Assembly (NCBI GenBank): GCA_037200925.1
Contig: JBBCGO010000001.1
Coordinates: forward strand, 601,607 to 665,606
Length of the DNA stretch: 64,000 bases
Reading direction: 5' to 3'
Source of the DNA: Candidatus Doudnabacteria bacterium
Lineage (GTDB): Bacteria; Patescibacteriota; Doudnabacteria; UBA920; O2-02-FULL-48-8
Below are positions 19,818 to 63,416 of this stretch, piece by piece (position 1 is the first letter of the stretch; every line of letters starts with the position of its first letter). The notes under the pieces are model-generated. The model worked only from the letters and a program-made list of their open reading frames with translations. It was not told where the DNA came from and ran no database searches. The translations under genes and the position numbers were made by a program.

Positions 19818-20915
19818 TTATAGTTTGATCGGCATCACGATATAAATATAATTATCCCGGCCGGTTGGCGTGATGGCGGCCGGCGAAGCGTCATTGATCA
19901 TCTTGAAGTTCACTGTCGGTTCAGAAATATTATTCAGGCAATCGAGAAGATACCGGAAATTGAACACAGCCCGGTTCTCATCACCTTCAACTTTTGCCTT
20001 GATCAAAGTGATGTTCTCGCCTGAGGCCATGGACGCAGCTGTCACGGTAATGCCCGCGGGACCTGCTTCCAAATTGACATTGTTTGAATCAGGCGCAAAC
20101 AAAGCTGCCGCCTTAAGAGCATGGATGAACTCTTCGCGGGAAACCACAGCCTCGGTCTTAAAGTCCTTGGGAATGATCTGGCGGTAGTCCGGGTATTGGC
20201 CGTCAATCAGCCTTGAGATCAGTTCAGTTTCGTCAAACTTGAATAAAACCTGGCTTTCTGAGAAATAGATCTCAACCTGGCCCTTATCAGTGGTAAGAAT
20301 CTTATAAAACTCGGACACGGCTCTGGCCGGGATGATCACTTCCTTCGTACTGGCGGCAGGCTCCAAAAGCTGGGCTGTGCGTTCCGCCAGCCGGTACCGG
20401 TCAGTGGCAGCCACACGAATTGAATCTTGCTCAAAAGCCATAAAAATACCCGATATTTCAGGCTGGGTTTCGTTGGCTGCGGAAGCCCAAATGGTCTCCG
20501 CAAATGCATTTTTCAGTTCAAGAGAATCGATTTTGCTAAACGGCTCCTCACTCACTTGCGGAATAAGGGGAAAGTCTTCATGTGACAGCCCCTTAATGCT
20601 TGTGTGATAGTTTTCTGATTCCAAAGTCAGGGTTGTATTATCTTTGCTTTCAAGGGTGATCTTTTCGCTCGGAAGATTATTAATGTATTCATTGATCAGT
20701 TTCGCCGGTACTGTCAGCGCTCCTTCTTCTTCGATTTTGCCGCCGACCCAGGTATTCACTCCTATCTCTAAATTAGTTGAAGATAGTTTGATCCTTCCCT
20801 GGTCGGTCTTGATCAGAATATTGTTCAAAACCTGCAAAGGGTTCCCGCTTCCCACTACGCGACTGACTATGAACAAACCTTTTTTCAGATTTTCCTTGGT
20901 GCATATTAACTTCAT
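19818..20915 (-). CDS. dnaN: DNA polymerase III beta sliding clamp
   Basis: A 365-aa three-domain clamp lies between dnaA and recF. Confidence 0.9.
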   Translation of the reverse strand: MKLICTKENLKKGLFIVSRVVGSGNPLQVLNNILIKTDQGRIKLSSTNLEIGVNTWVGGKIEEEGALTVPAKLINEYINNLPSEKITLESKDNTTLTLESENYHTSIKGLSHEDFPLIPQVSEEPFSKIDSLELKNAFAETIWASAANETQPEISGIFMAFEQDSIRVAATDRYRLAERTAQLLEPAASTKEVIIPARAVSEFYKILTTDKGQVEIYFSESQVLFKFDETELISRLIDGQYPDYRQIIPKDFKTEAVVSREEFIHALKAAALFAPDSNNVNLEAGPAGITVTAASMASGENITLIKAKVEGDENRAVFNFRYLLDCLNNISEPTVNFKMINDASPAAITPTGRDNYIYIVMPIKL

Positions 20916-21134
20916 GACTTTATTAGATAATAATGATAATAGATTCTGTGGATTTGTGTGTAAGGTTTGTTTAACGAAGTTTTATTAGGTTTTTTGCTGA
21001 CCGTTAAATTTTTTTCCTGTAGTTAAACTGTTGGCAAGCACCTGATAAGAAAATGTTTTAAAGATTTTCTGAAAAGTTACCGACAGGCACACAACACTTA
21101 ACCAATAGTTAGCCCACAGGATGTAAACAAAAAA

Positions 21135-22472
21135 TCATACCAGATAAAGCCTGTCGCGGATCAGTTCTATCTCCTGTTTCAATCCGCTTTTTTCCTTAAT
21201 GATCCGTTCGATCTTATCAATAGCGTGAATAACAGTGGTGTGGTCGCGTCCGCCGAAAAATTCGCCGATGGAAGGCAGCGAGGTTTCGAGTTCTTTGCGG
21301 ATGATATACATGGCTATCTGCCGCGGATTGACGTATTCTTTTTTTCTCGACTGTTTCAGCAGATCTTCAGTTGTGACATTGTAAAAATCAGATACGATCT
21401 CAATGATCTTTTTGGCGGAAACTCCGCGTTTTTTGGGCGGCGTGATGACGTTTACCAGAATGCTTTTGACCTGTTCAATCGTCGGCCTGGTGTTATTCAG
21501 CTGGCAATAGACCATGAGGCGGTTTAGAGCGCCTTCCAGTTCGCGGATGTTGCTCTGTATGGTTTCCGCGATGTAGTTGAGGATCTCGGGGTCAACATTG
21601 TAGTTTTTTTCGCGGGCCTTGGTCTTCAGGATGGCCAGGCGGGTTTCCAGGTCAGGGGCCTGGATATCTGCGATCATCCCCCACTCGAACCGGGAGACCA
21701 GCCGTTCTTCAATGGCCGGTATTTCTTTGGGCAGACGGTCCGAGGTCATGACCACTTGCCTGTTATTTTGGTGCAAAGCGTTAAAAGTATGGAAAAACTC
21801 CTCTTGGGTGCCTTCACGTCCGGCCAAAAACTGGATATCATCCACTAAAAGCACGTCCACGTTGCGATAAAGCGATTTAAACTGGTCAGCCCGGCCCTGG
21901 CCTAAAGCTTGGACGAATTCATTGGTGAACCGTTCGGAGGTAACGTATAAAACTTTGGCATTCGGGTCTTTTTTGGTGATCTCAGCGCCTACCGCCTGCA
22001 TCAGATGGGTTTTCCCCAAACCCACCCCGCCATAAATAAAAAGCGGGTTATAAATATTCCCCGGTTTTCTGCTGACGGCCAGGCTGGCAGCATGAGCGAG
22101 CTGATTGTTTGAGCCGACGATAAAAGTGGTGAAAGTATATTTCGGATTAAGCGTCTGATTCTCGGCCCGTTTGGGCACGGCCGCTGTTCTGGCAACTTCT
22201 TTGGTCGCGGGCTGGGCAGAATACACAGGGCTGACAATTTGGTATTTAACTTCTTTGATCTCGGGAGCGATGGTTTTCAGGGTTTTAACTATATCTTGGT
22301 GGTATTTGTTCTGAAGCCATTCTTTGGTAAACGCATTCGGCACCCCTACCACTATTCCGTATTCGCTTTTTTCAATGATCGAAGTGTTTTTGAACCAAGT
22401 TGTGAAATTCGCCTTACTTAAAGTCAATTCCAAGTTTCCCAGTATTGCCTGCCAAAGCTGTTGGTTTGTCAT
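21135..22472 (-). CDS. dnaA: Chromosomal replication initiator DnaA
   Basis: The AAA+ motifs NPLFIYGGVGLGKTHL and LLVDDIQF are present, with a C-terminal DnaA-box-binding HTH. Confidence 0.95.
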   Translation of the reverse strand: MTNQQLWQAILGNLELTLSKANFTTWFKNTSIIEKSEYGIVVGVPNAFTKEWLQNKYHQDIVKTLKTIAPEIKEVKYQIVSPVYSAQPATKEVARTAAVPKRAENQTLNPKYTFTTFIVGSNNQLAHAASLAVSRKPGNIYNPLFIYGGVGLGKTHLMQAVGAEITKKDPNAKVLYVTSERFTNEFVQALGQGRADQFKSLYRNVDVLLVDDIQFLAGREGTQEEFFHTFNALHQNNRQVVMTSDRLPKEIPAIEERLVSRFEWGMIADIQAPDLETRLAILKTKAREKNYNVDPEILNYIAETIQSNIRELEGALNRLMVYCQLNNTRPTIEQVKSILVNVITPPKKRGVSAKKIIEIVSDFYNVTTEDLLKQSRKKEYVNPRQIAMYIIRKELETSLPSIGEFFGGRDHTTVIHAIDKIERIIKEKSGLKQEIELIRDRLYLV

Positions 22473-22799
22473 CGCGTCGCTTTCAATTCAAAGTGATTGT
22501 TTGTCCCTTGGCCACACTTTGAATTGTTAAATTAATAGCTTATATAAATGTCAACGATTTATTCTAACAGATAAGTTATCAACATGTAAATATAAAAATT
22601 TTGGCTAATTTAAGCCAAAAAAAAGCTATCATGTTAATATCATGTGGATTATGCGTGTATTAAATGTATAAAGCCGGCGTTTAGGTTAAAACAGATGACA
22701 AAAAAGTCTTGATATAGTATAATCATGAAGTTAATAATACAAAAAATTTGAATCGCAGGAATGTCTGACGTTCCCAAGAACAAATTTTGAGATACGACG
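22473..22799. other. Candidate oriC / divergent promoter region between dnaA and rpmH
   Basis: The region is AT-rich. It contains near-consensus DnaA boxes TGTGGATTA (about 22643) and TTATCAACA (about 22576), and a U-type palindromic element at 22741-22791. Confidence 0.5.
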
Positions 22800-22934
22800 A
22801 TGCAACCAACATATCGACCGAAAAAACTGCGGCGCAAGCGGGTACACGGCTTCAGAAAAAGGATGCGAACAAGCAATGGCCGAAATGTTCTGTCGCGCCG
22901 AAGAGCTCGCGGCCGAAAGAAATTGACGGTTTAA
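22800..22934 (+). CDS. rpmH: 50S ribosomal protein L34
   Basis: The 44-aa [47 protein letters not shown] was missed by the ORF track, which has a 60-aa floor. Confidence 0.9.
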
Positions 22935-23276
22935 ATGGGAAAACTGGCTTTGCTTAAAAGCGAGCAGGACTTTGAAGGATTTCGGAACAGCAAGTCATAT
23001 CAGTCAACGAACCTGAAGATAAGGGTCCGCTCTTCATCCCCAGACCAAAACACCCCCCGTTTTGGTTTTATTATCCCCAAAAAACTTGTGCCCAAAGCGG
23101 TTCACAGAAATTTGATCAAGCGCCGGATCAAAAACGCATTGCTCAAATCAGCATCAAATCTTCAGGCAGTTGACGTTCTGTTCTTCCCGCGGCCGCAATT
23201 GCTTCAGAAAAAATTCGCCGATCTGGAGCAAGAGATCAAGCTAATCTTTATCAAAGCACGTTTATGGAAACCCTAA
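22935..23276 (+). CDS. rnpA: RNase P protein component
   Basis: It lies directly after rpmH and has the basic RNR-like motif KAVHRNLIKRRIK. Confidence 0.85.
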   Translation: MGKLALLKSEQDFEGFRNSKSYQSTNLKIRVRSSSPDQNTPRFGFIIPKKLVPKAVHRNLIKRRIKNALLKSASNLQAVDVLFFPRPQLLQKKFADLEQEIKLIFIKARLWKP

Positions 23277-23521
23277 AGTTAATCAGCCGCATATTAGCCT
23301 GGCCACTACGGTTTTTGATCTGGGGTTACCAAAAAACCATTTCTCCGGACCATGGTTTTATCAGCAAGCTGTTTCCTTACGGCTACTGTAAATTCTATCC
23401 GTCCTGTTCAGCCTATGCGGATGCTGTTTTGAAACAACAGGGAATCATCGGCTTGCCTAAAATAATCCGCCGAATAATCAGTTGCCGTCCGGGTGCTCTC
23501 GGCGGGATCAATCTTCCTTAA
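23264..23521 (+). CDS. yidD: Membrane protein insertion efficiency factor YidD
   Basis: The conserved FLIWGYQKTISP...CKFYPSCSAYA is present. Confidence 0.85.
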   Translation: METLKLISRILAWPLRFLIWGYQKTISPDHGFISKLFPYGYCKFYPSCSAYADAVLKQQGIIGLPKIIRRIISCRPGALGGINLP

Positions 23522-23524
23522 TTT

Positions 23525-24238
23525 ATGAATATCGGGCATATTTTCAATTCACTTTTAGTCTACCCGCTGCTGAATTTGCTGGTTTTTTTCTACCACTATA
23601 TCCCTGACATTGGCGTAGTAATAATTCTTTTGACCGTGCTCATCCGCTTGGTGCTTCTCCCTTCATTCCATAAATCACTGAAGCAGCAGAAGGCTTTGGC
23701 GGAACTGCAGCCAAAAATGAATGAGATCAAGGAGAAATATAAGGACGACAAGGAAGCGCAGGCCAAAGCCACAATGGAGCTTTACCAGGTCCACAAGGTC
23801 AACCCGCTCAGCTCCTGTCTGCCGCTTTTGATCCAGCTCCCGATCTTGATCGCGTTATATCAGGTTTTTATTAAAAGCTTAAGCGGAAAAACCCTGGTCG
23901 GTCTGTACAGTTTTGTTCATGCCCCCCAAAGCATTAATCCGATCTTCCTTCACTTTTTAAATTTGGCGCATACGAATGTGGTGATGGCCTTCCTGGCCGG
24001 GATCCTGCAGTATTTCCAAAGCCGCTTAATGTTGCCCAAAACCCGATCCGACGACCCAACGGCCAGAATGCTGGCATATCAAACCATGTATTTTTTACCG
24101 GCAGTTACGATCCTGCTGGGCATCAGGTTCCCGGCCGGGCTGACGCTTTATTGGGTGGTGACGACGCTGTTTGGGATCGGACAGCAGTATTATATTCTGA
24201 GAAAAGAAGCAAAAGGAGCCTTAAATGCAGCCCAGTAA
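23525..24238 (+). CDS. yidC: Membrane protein insertase YidC/Oxa1 (short Gram-positive-type form)
   Basis: The 237-aa protein carries the YidC core helices and LQPKMNEIKEKYK. Confidence 0.85.
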   Translation: MNIGHIFNSLLVYPLLNLLVFFYHYIPDIGVVIILLTVLIRLVLLPSFHKSLKQQKALAELQPKMNEIKEKYKDDKEAQAKATMELYQVHKVNPLSSCLPLLIQLPILIALYQVFIKSLSGKTLVGLYSFVHAPQSINPIFLHFLNLAHTNVVMAFLAGILQYFQSRLMLPKTRSDDPTARMLAYQTMYFLPAVTILLGIRFPAGLTLYWVVTTLFGIGQQYYILRKEAKGALNAAQ

Positions 24239-36693: not shown

Positions 36694-36835
36694 GGGAAAT
36701 TTAGGATACCAAATTCACATAAGCAACCATATCAGAATTATGTCCAATGGTCAATCTTAGCATGTGGATTGTTTGTGGGGTAATTTATTAGTCTTTAAAA
36801 AAAGACTAAAAAAAGCTATAATATTATTAATTCAC

Positions 36836-36885
36836 GAAAAAACTGAGTCGCAGGCGCAAAGGCGCCGAGAACAGTTTTTTCGAGA
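36836..36885 (+). repeat. U-type palindromic element (A5-CTGAGTCGCAG-hairpin-GAGAACAG-T6-CGAGAG)
   Basis: It has three further copies, at 22741, 57274 and 57422. The outer and inner stems covary between copies. Confidence 0.7.
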
Positions 36886-37029: not shown

Positions 37030-37116
37030 GCCTGGGTGGCGGAACTGGCATACGCATGGGACTTAAAATCCCAGGCCCGCAAGGGATTGAGGGTTCGATT
37101 CCCTCCCCAGGCACCA
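37030..37116 (+). tRNA. tRNA-Leu (TAA)
   Basis: The acceptor is GCCTGGG/CCCAGGC and the anticodon loop is CTTAAAA. It has a long variable arm, the T-arm GAGGG-TTCGATT-CCCTC, and ends ACCA. Confidence 0.9.
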
Positions 37117-37326
37117 GAAATCGGAATCGAAGGGCAGAAGTGAAGCGAAGCTGAACGTCGACGAATGCGAGCAAGCGCAGCATTCGGCGCTGCCCCGGAC
37201 AGATTCCCTCCCCAGGCACCAGAAATCGGAATCGAAGGGCAGAAGTGAAGCGAAGCTGAACGTCGACGAATGCGAGCAAGCGCAGCATTCGGCGCTGCCC
37301 CGGACAGATTCCCTCCCCAGGCACCA
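37117..37326 (+). repeat. Two perfect tandem copies of a 105-bp unit, each an 85-bp structured D element plus an exact copy of the last 20 nt of tRNA-Leu
   Basis: The units at 37117-37221 and 37222-37326 are identical. Each ends gattccctccccaggcacca, matching tRNA-Leu 37097-37116. Confidence 0.85.
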
Positions 37327-37350: not shown

Positions 37351-39723
37351 ATGAATAAGAAAAATAAAATCTCCGCATCCAGTAAGAAAACCCTTAAGCT
37401 TAAAGTTTTAGCCAAGGAAAAGGAAGGTATCAGGCGCAGACTGGCTGTGACCGCAGGCAAACTTCGCCTTAAAGCCGAAAAACTTGCAGTGACGGCCAAA
37501 AAAAAGGAAAGCGTCAGGCGCAAGCTGGCCGTGAGGGCTAAGAGGCTTCCTATTAAAGCCGAAAAGTTGGCGGTAACAGCCAAAGAAAAGGAAAGTATCA
37601 GACGAAGGCTGGCTGTGACCGCAGAGAAACTTGCCATTACTGCCAAGGAAAAAGAAAGCATCAGGCGCAACCTGGCTGTGACCGCAAGACAACTTGCCAG
37701 AACAGCGAAAGAAAAAGAAAGCGTTCGGAACAAGCTGGTGGTAACGGCAGAGAAACTTGCTATAACAGCTAAGGAAAGAGAAAGCATCAGGCAAAATCTT
37801 GCCGTAACCGCCAAGGAAAAAGAAAGCGTTCGGAACAAGCTGGTGGTAACGGCAGAAAAGCTGGCTGTGACCGCCAAGGAAAAAGAAAGTGTGAGGCGCA
37901 ATTTGGCTGTGACCGCCAAGGAAAAAGAAAGCGTTCGGAACAAGCTGGTGGTTACTGCTAAAAAGCTCGCAATTACCGCCAAGGAAAAAGAAAGCGTTCG
38001 GAACAAGCTGGTGGTAACGGCAGAAAAGCTGGCTGTGACCGCCAAGGAAAAAGAAAGTGTGAGGCGCAATTTGGCTGTGACCGCCAAGGAAAAAGAAAGC
38101 GTTCGGAACAAGCTGGTGGTTACTGCTAAAAAGCTCGCAATTACCGCCAAGGAAAAAGAAAGCGTTCGGAACAAGCTGGTGGTAACGGCAGAGAAACTTG
38201 CTATAACAGCTAAGGAAAGAGAAAGCATCAGGCAAAATCTTGCCGTAACCGCCAAGGAAAAAGAAAGCATCAGGCGCAACCTGGCTGTGACCGCAGAGAA
38301 ACTTGCCATTACTGCCAAGGAAAAAGAAAGCATCAGACAGAACTTGGCAGTGACAGCCAAGGAAAAAGAAAGCATCAGACAGAACCTGGCTGTGACTGCC
38401 AAGGAGCTTGCCGTAACCGCCAAGGAAAAAGAAAGCATCAGACAGAACTTGGCAGTGACAGCAAAAGAAAAAGAAAGTATCAGGGAAAACCTGGCAGTGA
38501 CAGCAAAAGAAAAAGAAAGTATCAGACAGAACCTGGCTGTGACAGCAGAAAAACTGGCCGTGACTGCCATAGAAAAAGAAACAATGATCGCCAGTATCGG
38601 GGAGGGGCTTATTGCTACCGATGAAAAAGGAATTATTACCGTTATAAATAATACGGCTGAAAAACTGCTTGATATTAAAAGCGAAGAAGTTATAGGAAAA
38701 GTTTTTTCCGAAGTGATCCCTATGGAAGACGAAAAAGGAGCATCAATTCCGCCCCAAAAACGTCCTATGATCATGGCTTTGACAGCCGGTACGACTACCA
38801 GCACAACAACAGAGGGCGCAAGCTATTATTACGTGCGGAAAGACAAAACAAAATTTCCGGTCGCAATGGTGGTGACGCCTATTATTCTTGACAGCAAGGT
38901 CATCGGGACCATTGAAGTTTTCCGTGATATCACGCGGGAAAAAGAAGTTGACCGGGCTAAAAGCGAATTTGTGTCGCTTGCTTCTCATCAGCTCCGCACT
39001 CCGCCCACGAGCATGAAATGGTTTTTGGAAATGCTGCTTTCCGGTGAGGTCGGAGAATTAAACGAAAAACAGAGAGAATATTTCGAAGAGGTGTATAGGA
39101 ACAATCAGCGGATGATAACCCTTGTTAATACACTGCTTAATGTGTCGCGGATCGATCTTGGTGTGTTCGCCATTCAGCCCGAACCAACCGACGTAGTAGC
39201 CCTCACCAAGGGAATAATTGAAGAAATGAACCCGCAAATACACGAAAAAGAATTGCGCGTGAATGAAAAATATTCGAAGAACCTTCAAAAGATTTTCGTT
39301 GATCCGAAACTCATAAGCATCGCGATACAAGATGTTGTCAGCAATGCGGTGAAATATACGCCGCCGAAAGGAACTATTGATGTGGAGATCTCCTTGAAAC
39401 AAAACGGTGAGAGTATCGGAGGCCGATTGATCAAAAAAGACAGTTTGGTCGTATTTATATCGGACACCGGCTACGGTATTCCCAAAGACCAGCAGGATAA
39501 GATCTTTACCAAGCTTTTCCGCGCTGACAATGTGAAAGAAAAGGATACGGACGGGACAGGATTAGGGCTGTACCTGGCCAAGTCTATCATTGACCACGCC
39601 CAAGGGAATATTTGGTTCGAGTCTGAACTGAACAAGGGATCGAAATTCTATCTTACGATCCCGCTCGAAGGCATGAAGAAAAAAGAAGGAATAACAAAGA
39701 TCACCAGCGGTTCTACCGGTTAG
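37351..39723 (+). CDS. Cytoplasmic sensor histidine kinase with about 400 aa of N-terminal near-identical coiled-coil tandem repeats, then PAS, HisKA and HATPase domains
   Basis: The H-box SHQLRTP is present, with the N/G boxes (DTGYGIP, GTGLGL). A PAS domain carries a Thr-rich insert. The N-terminal region consists of 14-aa LAVTAKEKESVRRN units. Confidence 0.8.
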   Translation: MNKKNKISASSKKTLKLKVLAKEKEGIRRRLAVTAGKLRLKAEKLAVTAKKKESVRRKLAVRAKRLPIKAEKLAVTAKEKESIRRRLAVTAEKLAITAKEKESIRRNLAVTARQLARTAKEKESVRNKLVVTAEKLAITAKERESIRQNLAVTAKEKESVRNKLVVTAEKLAVTAKEKESVRRNLAVTAKEKESVRNKLVVTAKKLAITAKEKESVRNKLVVTAEKLAVTAKEKESVRRNLAVTAKEKESVRNKLVVTAKKLAITAKEKESVRNKLVVTAEKLAITAKERESIRQNLAVTAKEKESIRRNLAVTAEKLAITAKEKESIRQNLAVTAKEKESIRQNLAVTAKELAVTAKEKESIRQNLAVTAKEKESIRENLAVTAKEKESIRQNLAVTAEKLAVTAIEKETMIASIGEGLIATDEKGIITVINNTAEKLLDIKSEEVIGKVFSEVIPMEDEKGASIPPQKRPMIMALTAGTTTSTTTEGASYYYVRKDKTKFPVAMVVTPIILDSKVIGTIEVFRDITREKEVDRAKSEFVSLASHQLRTPPTSMKWFLEMLLSGEVGELNEKQREYFEEVYRNNQRMITLVNTLLNVSRIDLGVFAIQPEPTDVVALTKGIIEEMNPQIHEKELRVNEKYSKNLQKIFVDPKLISIAIQDVVSNAVKYTPPKGTIDVEISLKQNGESIGGRLIKKDSLVVFISDTGYGIPKDQQDKIFTKLFRADNVKEKDTDGTGLGLYLAKSIIDHAQGNIWFESELNKGSKFYLTIPLEGMKKKEGITKITSGSTG
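37411..38566 (+). repeat. Coding tandem repeat with a 42-bp unit (14 aa = 2 heptads), about 27 copies, and higher-order 168-bp near-perfect duplications
   Basis: Identical blocks such as gtgaggcgcaatttggctgtgaccgccaag recur at 37891 and 38059. Confidence 0.9.
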
Positions 39724-40667: not shown

Positions 40668-41252
40668 TTAGTTTTGCAGGGGTAATTGATTCAATTGATT
40701 TAAAATTTGGTTTACCGCCAATACCCAGTTTGCATTGGGATGCCCGACATATCGGTTCACGATTTTTTTCGGAGTGTCTGCGCCGGCCGCAATATATTTG
40801 GTGGCCAGCAGCTGGTCGACGTCTGCGAACCCTTCAGAGAAAGACTCGTAGCGTTTCAGGTTCCAAGCGCCGCCCACGCCCCAGCAATTGTTGTACATCT
40901 GATGCTTGCAGAGTGTTGATTCTCCGTTGGAAATGGCCAAAACCAATTTCCAATTGTCATTCTGTAAGATGTCAGCGGCATATGGCGCCAAAGGCGAATT
41001 TTTTTGCTCCAGATAAGTTTGTAAGATCGCGATGTTCGGATCCGGTTGTTCGGGCTGTTGGGTTTGAAGCACATCCGCAGCCTGATCGTTATTGTTCTGC
41101 ACAAGCGGAGCCAGATCAGTAAGATTGACGTTTTGTAGTGTTTGTATTTCAAGGACGAGTTTTGTGTTTTGTGTTTGGGCTGAAGCTGAGTATGGCAGTA
41201 ATGAAACCGCCGAAGTCACAATCAGTGTAGCCAAGACAAAACGGGCTGTCAT
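40668..41252 (-). CDS. Secreted paralog carrying the SNGES...C...NCWGVGG domain
   Basis: A GGGGAAA RBS precedes the ATG at 41252. The signal peptide is MTARFVLATLIVTSAVSLLPYSASA. The C-terminal domain is homologous to 36010..36693. Confidence 0.5.
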   Translation of the reverse strand: MTARFVLATLIVTSAVSLLPYSASAQTQNTKLVLEIQTLQNVNLTDLAPLVQNNNDQAADVLQTQQPEQPDPNIAILQTYLEQKNSPLAPYAADILQNDNWKLVLAISNGESTLCKHQMYNNCWGVGGAWNLKRYESFSEGFADVDQLLATKYIAAGADTPKKIVNRYVGHPNANWVLAVNQILNQLNQLPLQN

Positions 41253-41419: not shown

Positions 41420-41550
41420 AGCGAGGGTGTTGCAGAAAAAAGAATTCTGAGGCCGAAGTCACATTGCCGTGACGAGGCCGAGGACTTAGGTGTAAATTTG
41501 TGACTAGCAAATTTATACCGTCTTTTTTCGCAATACCCGAGCGCCCTATG
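41420..41550 (+). repeat. Element 'A': a conserved 27-nt box (AGCGAGGGTGTTGCAGAAAAAAGAATT), variable hairpins and a terminator-like hairpin with T6. It is a candidate small RNA.
   Basis: The 27-mer and the block CGTCTTTTTTYGCAATRCCCGAGCGYCCT are both repeated in inverse orientation at 63195-63300. Confidence 0.45.
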
Positions 41551-41599
41551 TTGCCTGCCCCCGCCTGGCACGGGGCCAGGACGGGGTACGCAACTATCA

Positions 41600-41628
41600 A
41601 TATTAGCAAAAAAAAGCTATTTTGTCAA
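41600..41628 (-). promoter_or_regulatory. Minus-strand sigma70-like promoter: TTGACA, a 17-nt spacer, then TAATAT
   Basis: The reverse strand reads ctaTTGACAaaatagcttttttttgcTAATAT. A near-identical cassette lies at 44929-44957. Confidence 0.4.
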
Positions 41629-54998: not shown

Positions 54999-55817
54999 TC
55001 AGCGATTTTTTTGATTACCATCGCCGTTTTTGATTTGTTTTTTCAGGTCATCGATTTCTTTTTTGAGCTCCACCATTTTCAGTTCCCTGCCGATCATGCT
55101 TTTATTCACTGATTCCAATTCTGTTACTCTGCTGAGCAGTTCTTTTGCGCGCTCGGCGATCTTGACCTCGAGGCTTTTGGTATATTCGGCTAATTTACCC
55201 TCAAGCCCTTTTCTGGTGGTGATGTCTTCCATGGCCAGGATGATCAGTTGCACAGTGTCTATTTGTTTGGCATTGAGCAGTATAGTTTTTTCACCGATGG
55301 TTTCGAAAGTATGCGTGACGCCGTAATCCCTGACCATTTTTTTCTCCGGCAGAATTTCTTCCAGCAGGCTCTTCAGTTCAGGAATATTCCACTGGCCGTT
55401 CCCCAGTTTATAAAGAAGAATATTTTCCGTTTCTTGGGGCGAAACCTGAAAGGTTTCATAGAAAGTCGGATTCGCTTCAACCACGCGAAGATCAGCGTCA
55501 AGAATTAAGAACGACTCTCTGGCAACGTCTACCAAAGTTTTCATATAATGCAAAGCTTCCTGTTGTGATTCTTTGATCTCCTGCTTTGATTCTGTTAACT
55601 GCGCTTCTGATTCTTTTATTTTCTCTTCCGATTCTGTTATATTCTGCTTTGATTCTGTTAACTGCGCTTCTGATTTTTTTATTTTTTGTTTCGATTCTTT
55701 TACATCCTGCTTTGATTCTCTAATGTCCTCTTCGGATTCTCTTACTCCCAGTTTTGATTCTTTTAACTCCGCTTCCGATTCTTTTAATGTATCTGATTTT
55801 TTTGTGTCGTCGTTCAT
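54999..55817 (-). CDS. PAS-like domain protein with N-terminal ESK-rich coiled-coil tandem repeats, upstream partner of the histidine kinase and response regulator
   Basis: Repeats of KESEAQLTESKQ are followed by a PAS-like core and a C-terminal coiled-coil. The underlying DNA repeat spans 55560-55800. Confidence 0.55.
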   Translation of the reverse strand: MNDDTKKSDTLKESEAELKESKLGVRESEEDIRESKQDVKESKQKIKKSEAQLTESKQNITESEEKIKESEAQLTESKQEIKESQQEALHYMKTLVDVARESFLILDADLRVVEANPTFYETFQVSPQETENILLYKLGNGQWNIPELKSLLEEILPEKKMVRDYGVTHTFETIGEKTILLNAKQIDTVQLIILAMEDITTRKGLEGKLAEYTKSLEVKIAERAKELLSRVTELESVNKSMIGRELKMVELKKEIDDLKKQIKNGDGNQKNR

Positions 55818-56035
55818 ATTTTTGATCCCCCCAGTTAGTTTTAAGATTTTTAAGCTAAAATTAGTTTAATATTCCCTACGGTATAAAATCAGAATAGTTA
55901 AATTTTACCCCAATGTCAATAAACGCCAGTAAATCACTATATATCCGGCCAAAAATATTATAAATTGAGCGGGGTTTAATAATAAGGGCTTCGCAAAAGC
56001 CGCGAAGCCCCGAGTCCCAGCAGGACGCGTAACAG

Positions 56036-57241: not shown

Positions 57242-57273
57242 ATAAGATTTGGTATAATAGGATTTCTAAGACC

Positions 57274-57325
57274 AAAAAATTGAGTCGCAGTCCCGATTTA
57301 TCGGGACGAGAACAATTTTTTTGAG
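57274..57325 (+). repeat. U-type palindromic element (A6-TTGAGTCGCAG-TCCCGAtttaTCGGGA-CGAGAACAA-T7-GAG)
   Basis: It belongs to the same family as 36836, 57422 and 22741, and abuts tRNA-Phe. Confidence 0.7.
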
Positions 57326-57403: not shown

Positions 57404-57421
57404 AAGAATATAAGGAATTAC

Positions 57422-57467
57422 AAAAAATTTGAGTCGCAGGCCGAAGGCCGAGAACAAATTTTTTGAG
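57422..57467 (+). repeat. U-type palindromic element (A6-TTTGAGTCGCAG-GGCCgaaGGCC-GAGAACAAA-T6-GAG)
   Basis: It is followed by a roughly 65-nt leader homologous to the one preceding tRNA-Cys. Confidence 0.7.
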
Positions 57468-57617: not shown

Positions 57618-57646
57618 CTCCATATGAGGTGATGGAGTTTTTTTTT
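57618..57646 (+). terminator. Terminator hairpin CTCCATatgaggtgATGGAG followed by T9
   Basis: A GC/AT stem and a long T-run lie directly after tRNA-Gly. Confidence 0.6.
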
Positions 57647-57777
57647 GGAATCGAACGGGCAGAAGCGAGACGAGGCATCAGCCGAAGTCGAGCGTCGATG
57701 AAAGCGAGCAAGCGCAGCTTTCAGCGCTGCCCCGGGCAAGGCGCATTAGCGCCGCGGAATTCCCGCTACCCGCTCCA
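57647..57777 (+). repeat. D-type structured element homologous to the 37117 units, followed by a 19-nt exact copy of the tRNA-Gly 3' end (attcccgctacccgctcca)
   Basis: The conserved blocks are GGAATCGAACGGGCAGAAG...GCGAGCAAGCGCAGC...GCGCTGCCCCGG. The inner stem TGAAAG/CTTTCA here corresponds to CGAATG/CATTCG in the Leu copies. Confidence 0.8.
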
Positions 57778-57780
57778 AAG

Positions 57781-57812
57781 AAAAAATCCGACCATAATGT
57801 CGGATTTTTTCT
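57781..57812. terminator. Bidirectional terminator AAAAAATCCGACCataatGTCGGATTTTTT
   Basis: A perfect hairpin is flanked by an A-run and a T-run. Confidence 0.65.
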
Positions 57813-62715: not shown

Positions 62716-63194
62716 ATATTATTTTGTTGTATATATAAGAATTATACATTTAAAAGAGGATTTGCATGTTATAGATTATTTTTCCTCTTGAAATGCCGGG
62801 CAAGACGTGTTAATAATTAATTACTTTCAATAGAAAGGGGGGATTGGTAGTGGCATCCGATGTAGCTCGCAAGAACAAGCTCATCAAACAGGGTCGTTTG
62901 CTCCGTGATCAGCCGGAAAAAGCCGAGATGACGCTTGGCGAGTGGTTTGCAGAATACGAAATACTCAGTGAAGAAGGAGAATTTTTGGAGGAGCAGGCCG
63001 CAATCGTGAAGAGACTGGCAAGCGTACTTACTTCCGTGCAGCTCGCCCGGCAGTCCAGAGAATCGAACGCAGCATCTGCTTGAGGTGTCGTCGATGCCCA
63101 CCCGCGTTTTAGAAAAAAGGCTAGTGTTCGTCTTGTGATGCAAAGTTGTTGCCCCCCAGCAGCATACAAACCATCATGACACTAGCCTTTCGTC

Positions 63195-63300
63195 GCGTCA
63201 GGACGCTCGGGCATTGCAAAAAAAGACGTCCGCTGAAGCGGACTAAGGCTCACCGCATTGGAAAGCGGTTCGCAATTCTTTTTTCTGCAACACCCTCGCT
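63195..63300 (-). repeat. Element 'B': an inverse-orientation homolog of element A (27-nt box at 63274-63300 as reverse complement, plus hairpin GTCCGCttcaGCGGAC with a T-run)
   Basis: The 27-mer matches 41420-41446 exactly. A conserved downstream block and terminator-like hairpin are present. It lies immediately downstream of tRNA-Pro. Confidence 0.45.
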
Positions 63301-63319: not shown

Positions 63320-63342
63320 AAAAAACGCCTGAGCGTTTTTAT
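63320..63342 (-). terminator. Terminator hairpin AAAAACGCCTGAGCGTTTTT
   Basis: A GC stem is flanked by A and T runs after tRNA-Pro. Confidence 0.55.
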
Positions 63343-63416
63343 TGGTCGGGGTGCTGGGAATTGAACCCAGTCTACACGCACCCGAAGCGTGCGTACTACC
63401 GGTATACGACACCCCG
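63343..63416 (-). tRNA. tRNA-Pro (CGG)
   Basis: The reverse strand has a C1:G72 acceptor CGGGGTG/CACCCCG and anticodon loop TTCGGGT, ending ACCA. Confidence 0.8.

What the first reader, a model, noticed from the sequence alone, without database searches (positions are those of the whole stretch)
41420..41550. Two inverse-orientation copies, 22 kb apart, of a candidate small-RNA element with a conserved 27-nt box and terminator hairpin
Seen in sequence: AGCGAGGGTGTTGCAGAAAAAAGAATT at 41420-41446 recurs exactly as the reverse complement at 63274-63300.

In both copies the box is followed by different but well-formed hairpins. Copy A has GTCACattgccGTGAC and GTAAATTTG-tgactag-CAAATTTAT. Copy B has CCGCtttccaatGCGG and GTCCGCttcaGCGGAC. 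Next comes a conserved block CGTCTTTTTTYGCAATRCCCGAGCGYCCT. Its T-run sits immediately 3' of the last hairpin, which is terminator-like.

Copy B lies directly downstream of tRNA-Pro and its terminator on the minus strand. Copy A lies in a 430-bp intergenic region next to a promoter-like cassette.

Inference: this is a small structured RNA family, or an attenuator-like module, with a conserved 5' seed-like box and a variable middle.
Basis: seen in the sequence. Interest (0 to 1): 0.6.

Follow-up and report, generated by a model that had tools for sequence, protein, structure and literature searches.

The report
Structured terminator-bearing interspersed repeat in Doudnabacteria
The two inverted copies are real members of a small, undescribed family of 100-130-nt elements in Candidatus Doudnabacteria that fold into a tightly clamped three-way junction with a built-in terminator hairpin and come and go between related genomes, so they look more like a structured interspersed repeat than a dedicated small-RNA gene.

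Summary
The 27-mer occurs exactly twice, in inverse orientation, with 0 expected by chance, and the hairpins and 3' block are as described.

They form a 20-bp closing stem that encloses two hairpins, giving a three-way junction.

I found two further members in related Doudnabacteria metagenome contigs (L054 and L071). Across the four members every helix is kept by compensatory changes. A vs D has 10 double changes in 39 pairs.

No Rfam family matches, and there are no phage or plasmid matches.

There is no forward-strand sigma-70-type promoter at any copy. No copy is syntenic. Copy A is an insertion into a 5' leader that four related lineages conserve without it. Other copies sit in gene-end or terminator slots where relatives have a plain terminator or no room.

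An adjacent IS200-like transposase in L054 proved unrelated.

Best reading (about 0.5): a lineage-specific, structure-constrained, terminator-bearing interspersed repeat, analogous to SPRITE, BOX or REPIN, whose means of spread is unknown. Main rival (about 0.25): a genuine multicopy small RNA.

Interest is moderate.

The parts
41420..41547 (+). Copy A, whole element (128 nt): closing stem P1 + hairpin HP1 + hairpin HP2, a three-way junction
   Evidence: MFE -61.5 kcal/mol, z = -8.4, 0 of 200 shuffles as stable. CM R1 91 bits, E = 7e-23. The orthologous loci of four other lineages lack it.
41420..41446 (+). Copy A 5' box. Contains the 5' strand of P1: GC, tandem GA, GGGUGUUGC, bulged A, GAAAAAAGA, then junction AAUU.
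   Evidence: Exact 27-mer repeat. Pairs with 41521-41542.
41447..41483 (+). Copy A HP1: CU-GA-GGCC-GAA-GUCAC(auugcc)GUGAC-GA-GGCC-GA-GG
   Evidence: Folds. Homologous to HP1 of D, with compensatory changes (helices 2 and 3).
41484..41488 (+). Copy A junction (A)CUUA(G). The CUUAG motif is conserved in all four members.
   Evidence: Alignments A1 and A2.
41489..41519 (+). Copy A HP2: GGUGUAAAUUUG(ugacuag)CAAAUUUAUACC, the stem of a terminator-like site
   Evidence: Called terminator-like together with GTCTTTTTTC. Same loop as D, and the stem covaries with D's (helix 4).
41519..41547 (+). Copy A 3' block: CG, UCUUUUUU, C, GCAAUACCC, GA, GC, GCCCU. This is the T-run plus the 3' strand of P1.
   Evidence: Its last base abuts the conserved leader hairpin of the neighbouring gene.
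63200..63300 (-). Copy B, whole element (101 nt), same architecture
   Evidence: MFE -48.5 kcal/mol, z = -3.8. CM R1 135 bits.
63274..63300 (-). Copy B 5' box (identical 27-mer)
63248..63273 (-). Copy B HP1: GC-GA-ACCGC(uuuccaau)GCGGU-GA-GC
   Evidence: Two compensatory double changes against L054 (helix 3).
63228..63243 (-). Copy B HP2: GUCCGC(uuca)GCGGAC, followed by G-UCUUUUUUU
   Evidence: Called terminator-like. One compensatory change against L054 (helix 4).
63200..63228 (-). Copy B 3' block (T-run plus 3' strand of P1). Differs from A at three positions; the two inside P1 (C>U, A>G) give G.U pairs on this strand only, and the third lies outside the stem.
41548..41628 (-). Context, not part of the element: sigma-70-type promoter (41628->41600) and conserved structured leader hairpin (41599->41548) of gene 40668-41252
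   Evidence: Promoter matches 10 of 12 with TG. Promoter and hairpin are conserved in L071, L072/73, L074 and L075-77 without the element.
63321..63416 (-). Context: tRNA-Pro(CGG) 63343-63416 and its terminator 63340-63321, 20 nt upstream of copy B
63113..63190 (-). Context: long-loop hairpin AAAGGCUAGUGU...ACACUAGCCUUU followed by a T-run, 9 nt downstream of copy B
   Evidence: Read from the sequence. Not called by the simple scan because the loop is about 52 nt.

Best explanation
The two copies belong to a lineage-restricted family (Candidatus Doudnabacteria) of 100-130-nt interspersed, structure-constrained elements.

Shown:
- On one defined strand, each element folds into a three-way junction.
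- The closing stem has 20 bp. It is made of a GC clamp, a conserved tandem G.A/A.G loop, 9 bp, a bulged purine, and a 9-bp A-run/U-run helix.
- The stem encloses two hairpins joined by a conserved CUUAG linker.
- The second hairpin followed by G-UCUUUUUU has the form of a Rho-independent terminator.
- Copies are gained or lost between related genomes. They sit next to pre-existing hairpins, terminators or gene ends, in either orientation relative to local transcription.

Inferred:
- The element is a non-autonomous repeat. It is spread by transposition or recombination through an unidentified mechanism that probably depends on a single-strand or hairpin form.
- Persistence requires the folded form. 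This would explain compensatory evolution without synteny, and a closing-stem sequence that is identical within one genome but diverged between genomes.
- Where transcribed on its forward strand, it would act as a portable terminator. On read-through, the 3' box would clamp onto the 5' box. That would give a compact 3' end that either resists nucleases or is cut by RNase III, insulating neighbouring genes.
For: Fold and covariation:
- All four members fold independently into the same architecture. A is -61.5 kcal/mol (z = -8.4), B is -48.5 (z = -3.8), and D is -68.2 (z = -7.4). L054 is -45.9 kcal/mol.
- Closing stem: 80 of 80 cells are paired, with 3 double and 3 single changes. Slid controls pair only 44-61%.
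- A vs D: 39 shared pairs, 10 compensatory double changes in all four helices, 0 of 500 shuffles as high.
- B vs L054: 3 more double changes.

Strand:
- Six independent G.U/U.G pairs are compatible only with the forward strand, and none favour the other.
- The forward strand is more stable in every copy.
- The conserved GA/GA loops are not palindromic.

Terminator form: called in A, B and L054.

Sporadic distribution:
- Copy A is absent from the orthologous leader in L071, L072/73, L074 and L075-77. Promoter, leader hairpin and downstream boxes are conserved there.
- The gap orthologous to D's site is only 60 nt in another relative.
- L054's copy abuts the efp stop codon, where L068 and L069 have a plain bidirectional terminator.
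- L054's B-type copy is in a different gene context from B, although the genomes share 72-95% nucleotide identity.

No promoter: no forward-strand promoter at any copy.

Mosaic pattern: A and B (same genome) share an identical 5' box. A's hairpins are homologous to D's (another genome). B's are homologous to L054's.
Against: - Only four distinct members are known, and the density is low. There are 2 in about 74 kb of the source genome, 1 in 20.6 kb of L071, and 0 in about 57 kb of other Doudnabacteria loci.
- No target-site duplication, no cognate transposase and no near-identical copies were found, so mobility is inferred only from presence/absence and lack of synteny.
- Deletion in relatives, rather than insertion here, cannot be strictly excluded for each locus.
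- Conservation of all helices between genomes whose orthologous protein is only 62% identical is also what a functional RNA gene would show.
- The conserved 3' strand of the stem lies beyond the putative termination point, so simple termination cannot be the whole story.
- Transcription was not measured.
Confidence: 0.5

Rival explanations
1. A genuine multicopy small non-coding RNA family, either trans-acting or a ribonucleoprotein component. Each copy would be transcribed and processed into a stable 100-130-nt three-way-junction RNA. The clamped 5'/3' stem and tandem G.A motifs would be a protein-binding or processing platform, and the hairpins would be paralogue-specific.
For: - Covariation in every helix.
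- Strand-specific wobble pairs, and conserved non-palindromic GA/GA loops and CUUAG junction.
- The HP2 loop UGACUAG is identical in A and D across genomes whose orthologous protein is only 62% identical.
- B and L054 lie just downstream of tRNA genes and could be co-transcribed with them.
- No Rfam match, so it would be new.
Against: - No forward-strand promoter at any copy, although this genome clearly uses TTGACA-17-TAATAT promoters.
- D starts 16 nt after a stop codon.
- Copy A is antisense inside another gene's leader and is absent from four orthologous loci.
- There is no synteny for any copy.
- The exact 18/19-mer of the 5' box is absent from 185,579 species-representative genomes. It occurs once (L054) as a genuine element copy in 241 million metagenome records.
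Confidence: 0.25
2. A cis-acting attenuator or riboswitch-like leader that controls a downstream gene.
For: It has a terminator-like hairpin plus T-run, and the 5' box can pair with sequence on both sides of the T-run, so alternative pairings are conceivable. Copy A lies in a 5' leader.
Against: On the forward strand, no copy has a downstream co-oriented gene at leader distance. A faces a promoter and a convergent gene, B faces a convergent ORF, L054 faces efp, and D is followed by a terminator and then a separate promoter. In the leader, A is in the reverse orientation, and relatives lack it. The conserved parts are the ends, not a ligand-pocket-like core.
Confidence: 0.04
3. An end, or a miniature derivative (PATE), of the IS200/IS605-family insertion sequence found next to the L054 copy, mobilised by its Y1 (HUH) transposase.
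For: - In L054 a Y1_Tnp gene lies immediately upstream (Pfam E = 1e-27; NCBIfam IS200 equivalog 110 bits).
- HUH transposition is single-strand and hairpin-dependent, which would fit strand-specific structure.
- The IS inserts right after terminator T-runs (GGTTTT|), and the elements also sit near terminators.
Against: - The IS ends are defined by three copies (L054, L061, L062). They stop 22 nt before the element.
- L060-L063 IS copies have no element.
- The element shares no sequence with the CCCCGGG...CCCGGGG hairpins at the IS ends.
- There is no Y1 transposase in the 64-kb window.
- The protein is not a RAYT (28.9 bits against a cut-off of 80).
- A and B are on one replichore in opposite orientations.
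Confidence: 0.05
4. Structure-specific recombination sites. These could be attC-like, or inverted sites that flip the 22-kb segment between A and B.
For: - Imperfect inverted repeats with a bulged base, an internal unpaired loop and a variable terminal structure.
- Strand-specific folding.
- Position right after stop codons in L054 and D.
- Genome-specific homogeneity of the stem.
- Two copies in inverse orientation.
Against: - The polarity of the GTT/AAC motifs is opposite to the attC R-box consensus (5' arm GTTGC, 3' arm GCAAT), as read from the sequence.
- Copies are solitary, not in cassette arrays.
- The 22 kb between A and B carries core genes such as tRNAs and a Mur ligase.
- No recombinase was seen next to any copy.
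Confidence: 0.05
5. Part of a small protein-coding repeat on the reverse strand. ORFs of about 55 aa containing ...ILFSATPSL... span A and B.
For: Open frames span the element on the reverse strand in A, B and D. A and B keep the same frame at both boxes.
Against: L054 has stop codons in that frame. D uses a different frame through the 3' box. The stem substitutions are compensatory for pairing but radical or frameshifting for a peptide. In L054 the region starts at the efp stop codon, with no start codon or ribosome-binding site.
Confidence: 0.01

Closest known systems
[quoted passage not shown]
   Same: An interspersed intergenic repeat of about 100 nt. [quoted passage not shown] Here HP2 plus the T-run is terminator-like. 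B and L054 lie between convergent genes, and D lies at a gene's 3' end.
   Different: There is no evidence of sequence relatedness, and the phylum is different. This element has a 20-bp outer clamp beyond the T-run, a three-way junction, conserved tandem G.A loops, a low copy number, and interiors that differ between copies in one genome.
BOX elements of S. pneumoniae, and ERIC/Correia-type MITEs
   Same: Modular or palindromic intergenic repeats of 100-160 nt. Their terminal modules pair into a long stem around a variable middle. They are often co-transcribed at gene 3' ends, with orientation-dependent effects on mRNA (PMC3184786).
   Different: MITEs are defined by terminal inverted repeats plus target-site duplications and a cognate transposase. 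No duplication or transposase was found here. The ends contain conserved non-palindromic GA/GA motifs. Copies are few and are not near-identical.
REPINs (REP doublets) mobilised by RAYTs
   Same: Two inverted conserved arms separated by a spacer, forming a long hairpin. They are non-autonomous and thought to rely on a Y1/HUH transposase acting on single strands (PMC3337134 abstract). From my own knowledge of that literature, they persist in lineages with the structure maintained.
   Different: The arms here are not themselves palindromic REPs. There is no GTAG or CGTC terminal tag arrangement. The only Y1 transposase seen is an ordinary IS200-type enzyme, unlinked to the element. The copy number is low.
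Ordinary bidirectional intrinsic terminators (A-run, GC hairpin, T-run)
   Same: The inner half of the element is A-run, hairpin(s), T-run. The element occupies the slot where relatives have such a terminator after efp.
   Different: It has an extra conserved 11-bp outer stem with a GA/GA loop, a second hairpin, a conserved junction, and sequence homology between unlinked copies.

Membership tests
Any Rfam 15 family (6S, SRP, RNase P, Y RNA, ribozymes and others) | cmscan score at or above the family's gathering threshold | tested here: not met
   Only tRNAs pass in the window. Over either copy, no meaningful match even at E <= 10: best are Pinc at E = 4 (A) and tmRNA_permuted at E = 0.62, 14.6 bits against a gathering score of 47 (B).
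Independent bacterial sRNA gene | Own promoter upstream of the transcribed strand | tested here: not met
   No sigma-70-type site on the forward strand upstream of A, B, L054 or D. Only 16-22 nt separate B, L054 and D from the upstream gene or terminator. Non-canonical promoters cannot be excluded.
Independent bacterial sRNA gene | Rho-independent terminator at the 3' end | tested here: met
   HP2 plus the T-run is called in A, B and L054. D's HP2 has a bulge and is not called, but a terminator follows it directly.
Independent bacterial sRNA gene | Conserved genomic position in related genomes | tested here: not met
   Copy A is absent from four orthologous loci. D's site is too short in a relative. 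L054's context differs from B's.
Independent bacterial sRNA gene | A discrete transcript is detected | not testable with these tools
   No expression data are available.
Structured RNA (generic) | Base pairs maintained by compensatory substitutions | tested here: met
   80 of 80 cells paired in P1 with 3 double changes. 10 double changes in 39 pairs for A vs D, with 0 of 500 shuffles as high. 3 double changes for B vs L054. Caveats: there are few sequences, and the structure was derived from them.
MITE | Terminal inverted repeats | tested here: inconclusive
   The arms are about 85% complementary over 20 bp. However, the outermost conserved GA/GA positions are not inverted repeats of each other.
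MITE | Flanking target-site duplication | tested here: not met
   The flanks of A, B, L054 and D share no direct repeat.
MITE | A cognate autonomous IS with the same ends | tested here: not met
   None in the window or the fetched loci. The adjacent IS200-like element has unrelated ends. The full genomes could not be scanned.
REPIN / REP-RAYT system | A RAYT gene associated with the repeats, and arms that are themselves palindromic REPs | tested here: not met
   The L054 transposase scores 28.9 bits against a cut-off of 80 for the RAYT model, and 110 bits for IS200. It is not linked to the element. The arms are not self-palindromic, as read from the sequence.
IS200/IS605 end or PATE | The element lies within the IS boundaries or shares its subterminal hairpins | tested here: not met
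   The right end of the IS is 22 nt upstream of the element. Four other IS copies lack the element.
Integron attC site | R''/R' boxes RYYYAAC...GTTRRRY in that polarity, and arrays of cassettes | tested here: not met
   The 5' arm carries GTTGC and the 3' arm carries GCAAT, which is the opposite polarity. Copies are solitary.
TIGR array (tigRNA) | Tandem array of units next to a Nop-domain Tas gene | tested here: not met
   Copies are solitary with hairpin interiors. Definition taken from PMC12045711. The neighbouring genes are unrelated.
SPRITE-like terminator repeat | [quoted passage not shown] | tested here: met
   Terminator-like motif. B, L054 and D are at gene 3' ends. Copy A is the exception. 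Sequence homology to SPRITE itself was not tested.

The most novel reading that the evidence does not exclude
The element is a previously unknown class of structured nucleic-acid module in CPR bacteria. A genome-specific factor (a protein or RNP yet to be found) would recognise the clamped stem with its tandem G.A motifs. That factor would process it into a stable three-way-junction RNA with paralogue-specific hairpins, or mobilise it through a single-stranded intermediate. In either case it would be a new RNA-protein or mobile-element system, not a variant of MITE or REP biology.
Probability: 0.2. Interest if true: 0.7.

Novelty: new variant of a known kind. Interest (0 to 1): 0.42.

Why it matters
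CPR/Patescibacteria genomes are tiny and poor in repeats, and their non-coding repertoire is almost unexplored.

This element is well folded and supported by covariation, it carries its own terminator-like hairpin, and it moves between gene ends. If it is what I propose, it would be a portable transcription-insulating module. It would also be a handle on how these streamlined genomes gain and lose regulatory structure.

If it instead proves to be a processed RNA, it would add a new RNA family specific to Doudnabacteria. The closing stem is identical within a genome and diverged between genomes, which points to a co-evolving partner that could be identified by phylogenetic profiling.

Tried and rejected
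- **Rfam.** Searched at gathering threshold and at E <= 10. Nothing matched.
- **Exact-word scans of the 5' box.** Genome representatives gave 6 hits, all chance. Viral contigs gave 0 hits, twice. Metagenomes gave 53 hits, of which only L054 is real.
- **Link to the IS200-like transposase beside the L054 copy.** Rejected by mapping the IS ends in three copies and by four IS copies that lack the element.
- **RAYT/REPIN membership.** Rejected.
- **efp-linked synteny.** The two closest efp fragments (L068, L069) carry plain terminators instead.
- **More members.** Covariance models R1 and R2, run with filters off on about 74 kb of the source genome and about 95 kb of other Doudnabacteria loci, gave only D. 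A weak hit at 57640-57784 (E = 0.05) is not credible.
- **Reverse-strand small ORF.** Rejected.
- **TIGR-Tas / box C/D-like guide RNA.** Rejected on architecture.
- **attC-like site.** Rejected on R-box polarity and the lack of arrays.
- **GC-rich hairpin right of copy A.** I first suspected an IS end. It is in fact a conserved leader of the neighbouring gene.
- **Replication-strand bias test.** Uninformative. dnaA and the origin lie at about 22.5 kb, and A and B are on one replichore in opposite orientations.
- **Phage and plasmid collections.** No match.
- **Upstream similarity.** A and L054 share about 20 nt upstream of the element (GGTTTT-A(CA)TAGTTT(G/C)AATT). It may be part of the unit, a target preference or chance. 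Part of it (ACATAGTT(T)G) also matches native leader sequence in L074, so the left boundary is uncertain by 0-18 nt.

Full report
**1. Observation**

The 27-mer AGCGAGGGTGTTGCAGAAAAAAGAATT occurs at 41420-41446 (+) and 63274-63300 (-). It occurs nowhere else in the window, even with three mismatches allowed, and none are expected by chance. It is also the longest inverted repeat in the window.

The block lies at 41519-41547 (+) and 63228-63200 (-).

Copy B follows tRNA-Pro(CGG) at 63343-63416 (-) and its terminator. Copy A lies between two minus-strand genes.

**2. Anatomy**

- A closing stem P1 of 20 bp. It is made of GC, a tandem GA/GA loop, GGGUGUUGC paired with GCAAURCCC, a bulged A, and GAAAAAAGA paired with UCUUUUUU.
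- Hairpin HP1, whose base again carries GA...GA.
- A linker (N)CUUAG, then hairpin HP2, then G and the U-run.

Copy A folds at -61.5 kcal/mol (z = -8.4) and copy B at -48.5 (z = -3.8). The opposite strands are weaker, at -45.8 and -41.7. HP2 plus the T-run is called terminator-like in both copies.

**3. Known families**

No Rfam family matches at gathering threshold or at E <= 10. Phage and plasmid collections give no match.

**4. Relatives**

The source is a Candidatus Doudnabacteria MAG, GCA_037975565.1, on a 964-kb contig.

Exact-word scans gave the following:

- Species-representative genomes: only chance hits.
- Viral contigs: no hits.
- Metagenomes: one true member, L054.

A covariance model built from A, B and L054 found no other copy in the window or in the 10 kb beyond it. 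It did find a diverged member, D, in L071 at 48.6 bits, E = 2e-11. D folds into the same junction at -68.2 kcal/mol, z = -7.4.

A second model that included D found nothing more in about 81 kb of Doudnabacteria loci.

**5. Covariation and strand**

- Over the four members, all 80 cells of the 20 P1 pairs are standard pairs. Three pairs changed on both sides and three on one side. Slid controls pair only 44-61%.
- A and D are homologous throughout. They share the HP2 loop UGACUAG and have 39 shared pairs. Ten of these carry compensatory double changes, spread over all four helices. No shuffle out of 500 reaches this.
- B and L054 add three more double changes.
- Every one-sided change gives G.U or U.G on the forward strand. 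I count six independent events and none for the other strand, roughly p = 0.03 two-sided by my own count.
- The conserved GA/GA loops are not palindromic. On the other strand they would be UC/UC.

The structure is therefore selected on one strand, either as RNA or as single-stranded DNA.

**6. Context**

*(a) The L054 transposase.* The L054 copy lies beside a Y1_Tnp gene. The protein is an ordinary IS200/IS605 transposase, not a RAYT.

- Comparing three copies of the same IS (L054, L061, L062) places its right end 22 nt before the element.
- Its left end lies directly after a terminator T-run.
- The four other IS copies (L060-L063) have no element.

The IS therefore simply inserted between the tRNA-Ala terminator and the element. 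Before that insertion, L054 read tRNA, terminator, about 22 nt, element. That is the same layout as copy B.

*(b) The efp slot.* The 3' end of the L054 copy abuts the stop codon of a convergent efp gene. The two closest efp fragments from other lineages have a plain A-run, hairpin, T-run terminator in that position.

*(c) Copy A.* It sits inside the 5' leader of gene 40668-41252, in reverse orientation. It lies downstream of a TTGACA-17-TAATAT promoter (41628->41600) and a GC-rich leader hairpin.

- The promoter, the hairpin (which itself covaries) and the downstream boxes are conserved in four other lineages: L071, L072/73, L074 and L075-77.
- In those lineages a short unrelated spacer replaces the element.
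- The element's last base abuts the foot of the hairpin.

Copy A is therefore an insertion of about 130-146 nt, or was lost everywhere else.

*(d) Copy D.* It starts 16 nt after the stop codon of a co-oriented gene. A terminator and then the next gene's promoter follow it directly. In another relative the same intergenic gap is only 60 nt.

*(e) Promoters.* No forward-strand sigma-70-type promoter precedes any copy.

*(f) Replication.* dnaA, dnaN and yidC, together with a GC-skew switch, place the origin at about 22.5-23.5 kb. A and B are therefore on one replichore in opposite orientations.

**7. Mosaic pattern**

A and B, from the same genome, share a 100% identical 5' box but have unrelated hairpins. 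A's hairpins match D's, and B's match L054's. D and L054 come from other genomes, and D's stem has diverged at several paired positions. The stem is thus homogenised, or co-evolves with some factor, within a genome, while two hairpin types persist across genomes.

**8. Interpretation**

The fold is real and is selected on one strand. The following features fit a structure-constrained interspersed repeat that carries a Rho-independent-terminator-like hairpin:

- No promoter at any copy.
- No synteny between relatives.
- Insertion into a conserved leader.
- Occupation of terminator or gene-end slots.
- Either orientation relative to local transcription.

The closest analogues are SPRITE, BOX or ERIC-type elements and REPINs (definitions from PMC3184786, and PMC3337134). 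It fails the defining tests for MITE, REPIN/RAYT, IS200 end and attC:

- MITE: no target-site duplication and no cognate IS.
- REPIN/RAYT: rejected on the transposase score and the arm structure.
- IS200 end: the element lies outside the IS boundaries.
- attC: wrong R-box polarity and no cassette arrays.

I therefore file it as a new variant of that general kind, not as a member of any named family.

My confidence in this reading is about 0.5. The mechanism of spread, and any function in termination, 3'-end protection or RNase III processing, are inferred, not shown.

The main rival, at about 0.25, is a real multicopy small RNA or RNP component. The depth of the covariation would fit that equally well. 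The two readings are separable by a whole-genome model scan and by transcript mapping.

The attenuator, coding, IS-end, TIGR and recombination-site readings were tested and are unlikely.

**9. Verdict**

The interpretation as a small structured family is partly right, but the 'seed box', the promoter cassette and the attenuator ideas are not supported. The finding is of moderate interest: an undescribed, well-supported structured element in a poorly explored phylum. Its function and mobility remain unproven.

Noticed in passing
window 41548-41628 (-); also L071:9760-9819, L072:925-989, L074:1990-2036, L075:9757-9790: There is a strongly conserved promoter (TTGACA-17-TAATAT) followed by a structured leader hairpin, GAUAGUUGC-GUA-CCCCG...CGGGG-GCAG-GCAAC-AU, upstream of a lineage-specific secreted-looking 194-aa gene. 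The hairpin is conserved in five Doudnabacteria lineages, with compensatory changes in its apical part (L074, L075). Rfam has no match. It is a candidate cis-regulatory RNA in its own right.
   Followed up: partly
L054:254-885, L061, L062, L060: An IS200/IS605-family element carrying tnpA only (142 aa) is inserted in three independent loci exactly after the T-run of an intrinsic terminator (…GGTTTT|AAATACCAGG…, …GGTTTT|CTTTACCAGA…). This suggests that it targets post-terminator sites. Most homologues lie on contigs of about 1 kb, consistent with a multicopy IS that breaks assemblies.
   Followed up: partly
window 37097-37306 and 57683-57738: A 105-nt unit that includes a copy of the 3' end of tRNA-Leu(UAA) is tandemly duplicated right after that tRNA. 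The two copies are 100% identical. A third, 86%-identical copy of its core follows tRNA-Gly at 57.7 kb. This resembles att-site remnants of an integrative element, or a second repeat family.
   Followed up: no
window 22738-22759, 36833-36854, 57270-57291, 57419-57440: The motif (T)ACAAAAAAYTTGAGTCGCAGG recurs four times, three of them just upstream of or between tRNA genes. It may be a tRNA promoter or a processing-associated box.
   Followed up: no
window 19818-24238: dnaN (19818-20915, -), dnaA (21135-22472, -), a 1-kb AT-rich intergenic region (22473-23524) and yidC (23525-24238, +) coincide with the minimum of cumulative GC skew. This is the probable chromosomal origin of replication.
   Followed up: partly
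window 37351-39723 (+): A PAS/HisKA/HATPase histidine-kinase gene has a long N-terminal array of 21-aa (63-nt) and 35-aa (105-nt) coiled-coil-like repeats (AVTAKEKESIRxNL...). This also creates a spurious 603-aa antisense ORF.
   Followed up: no
window 55540-55829: There are about ten tandem 21-nt repeats at the 5' end of the minus-strand gene 54999-55817.
   Followed up: no
window 63113-63190 (-): A 12-bp stem (AAAGGCUAGUGU / ACACUAGCCUUU) closes a loop of about 52 nt and is followed by a T-run, 9 nt downstream of copy B. It makes a third consecutive terminator-like structure on the minus strand after tRNA-Pro. It lies just beyond the 3' end of a small called ORF on the opposite strand (62850-63083, +).
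   Followed up: no
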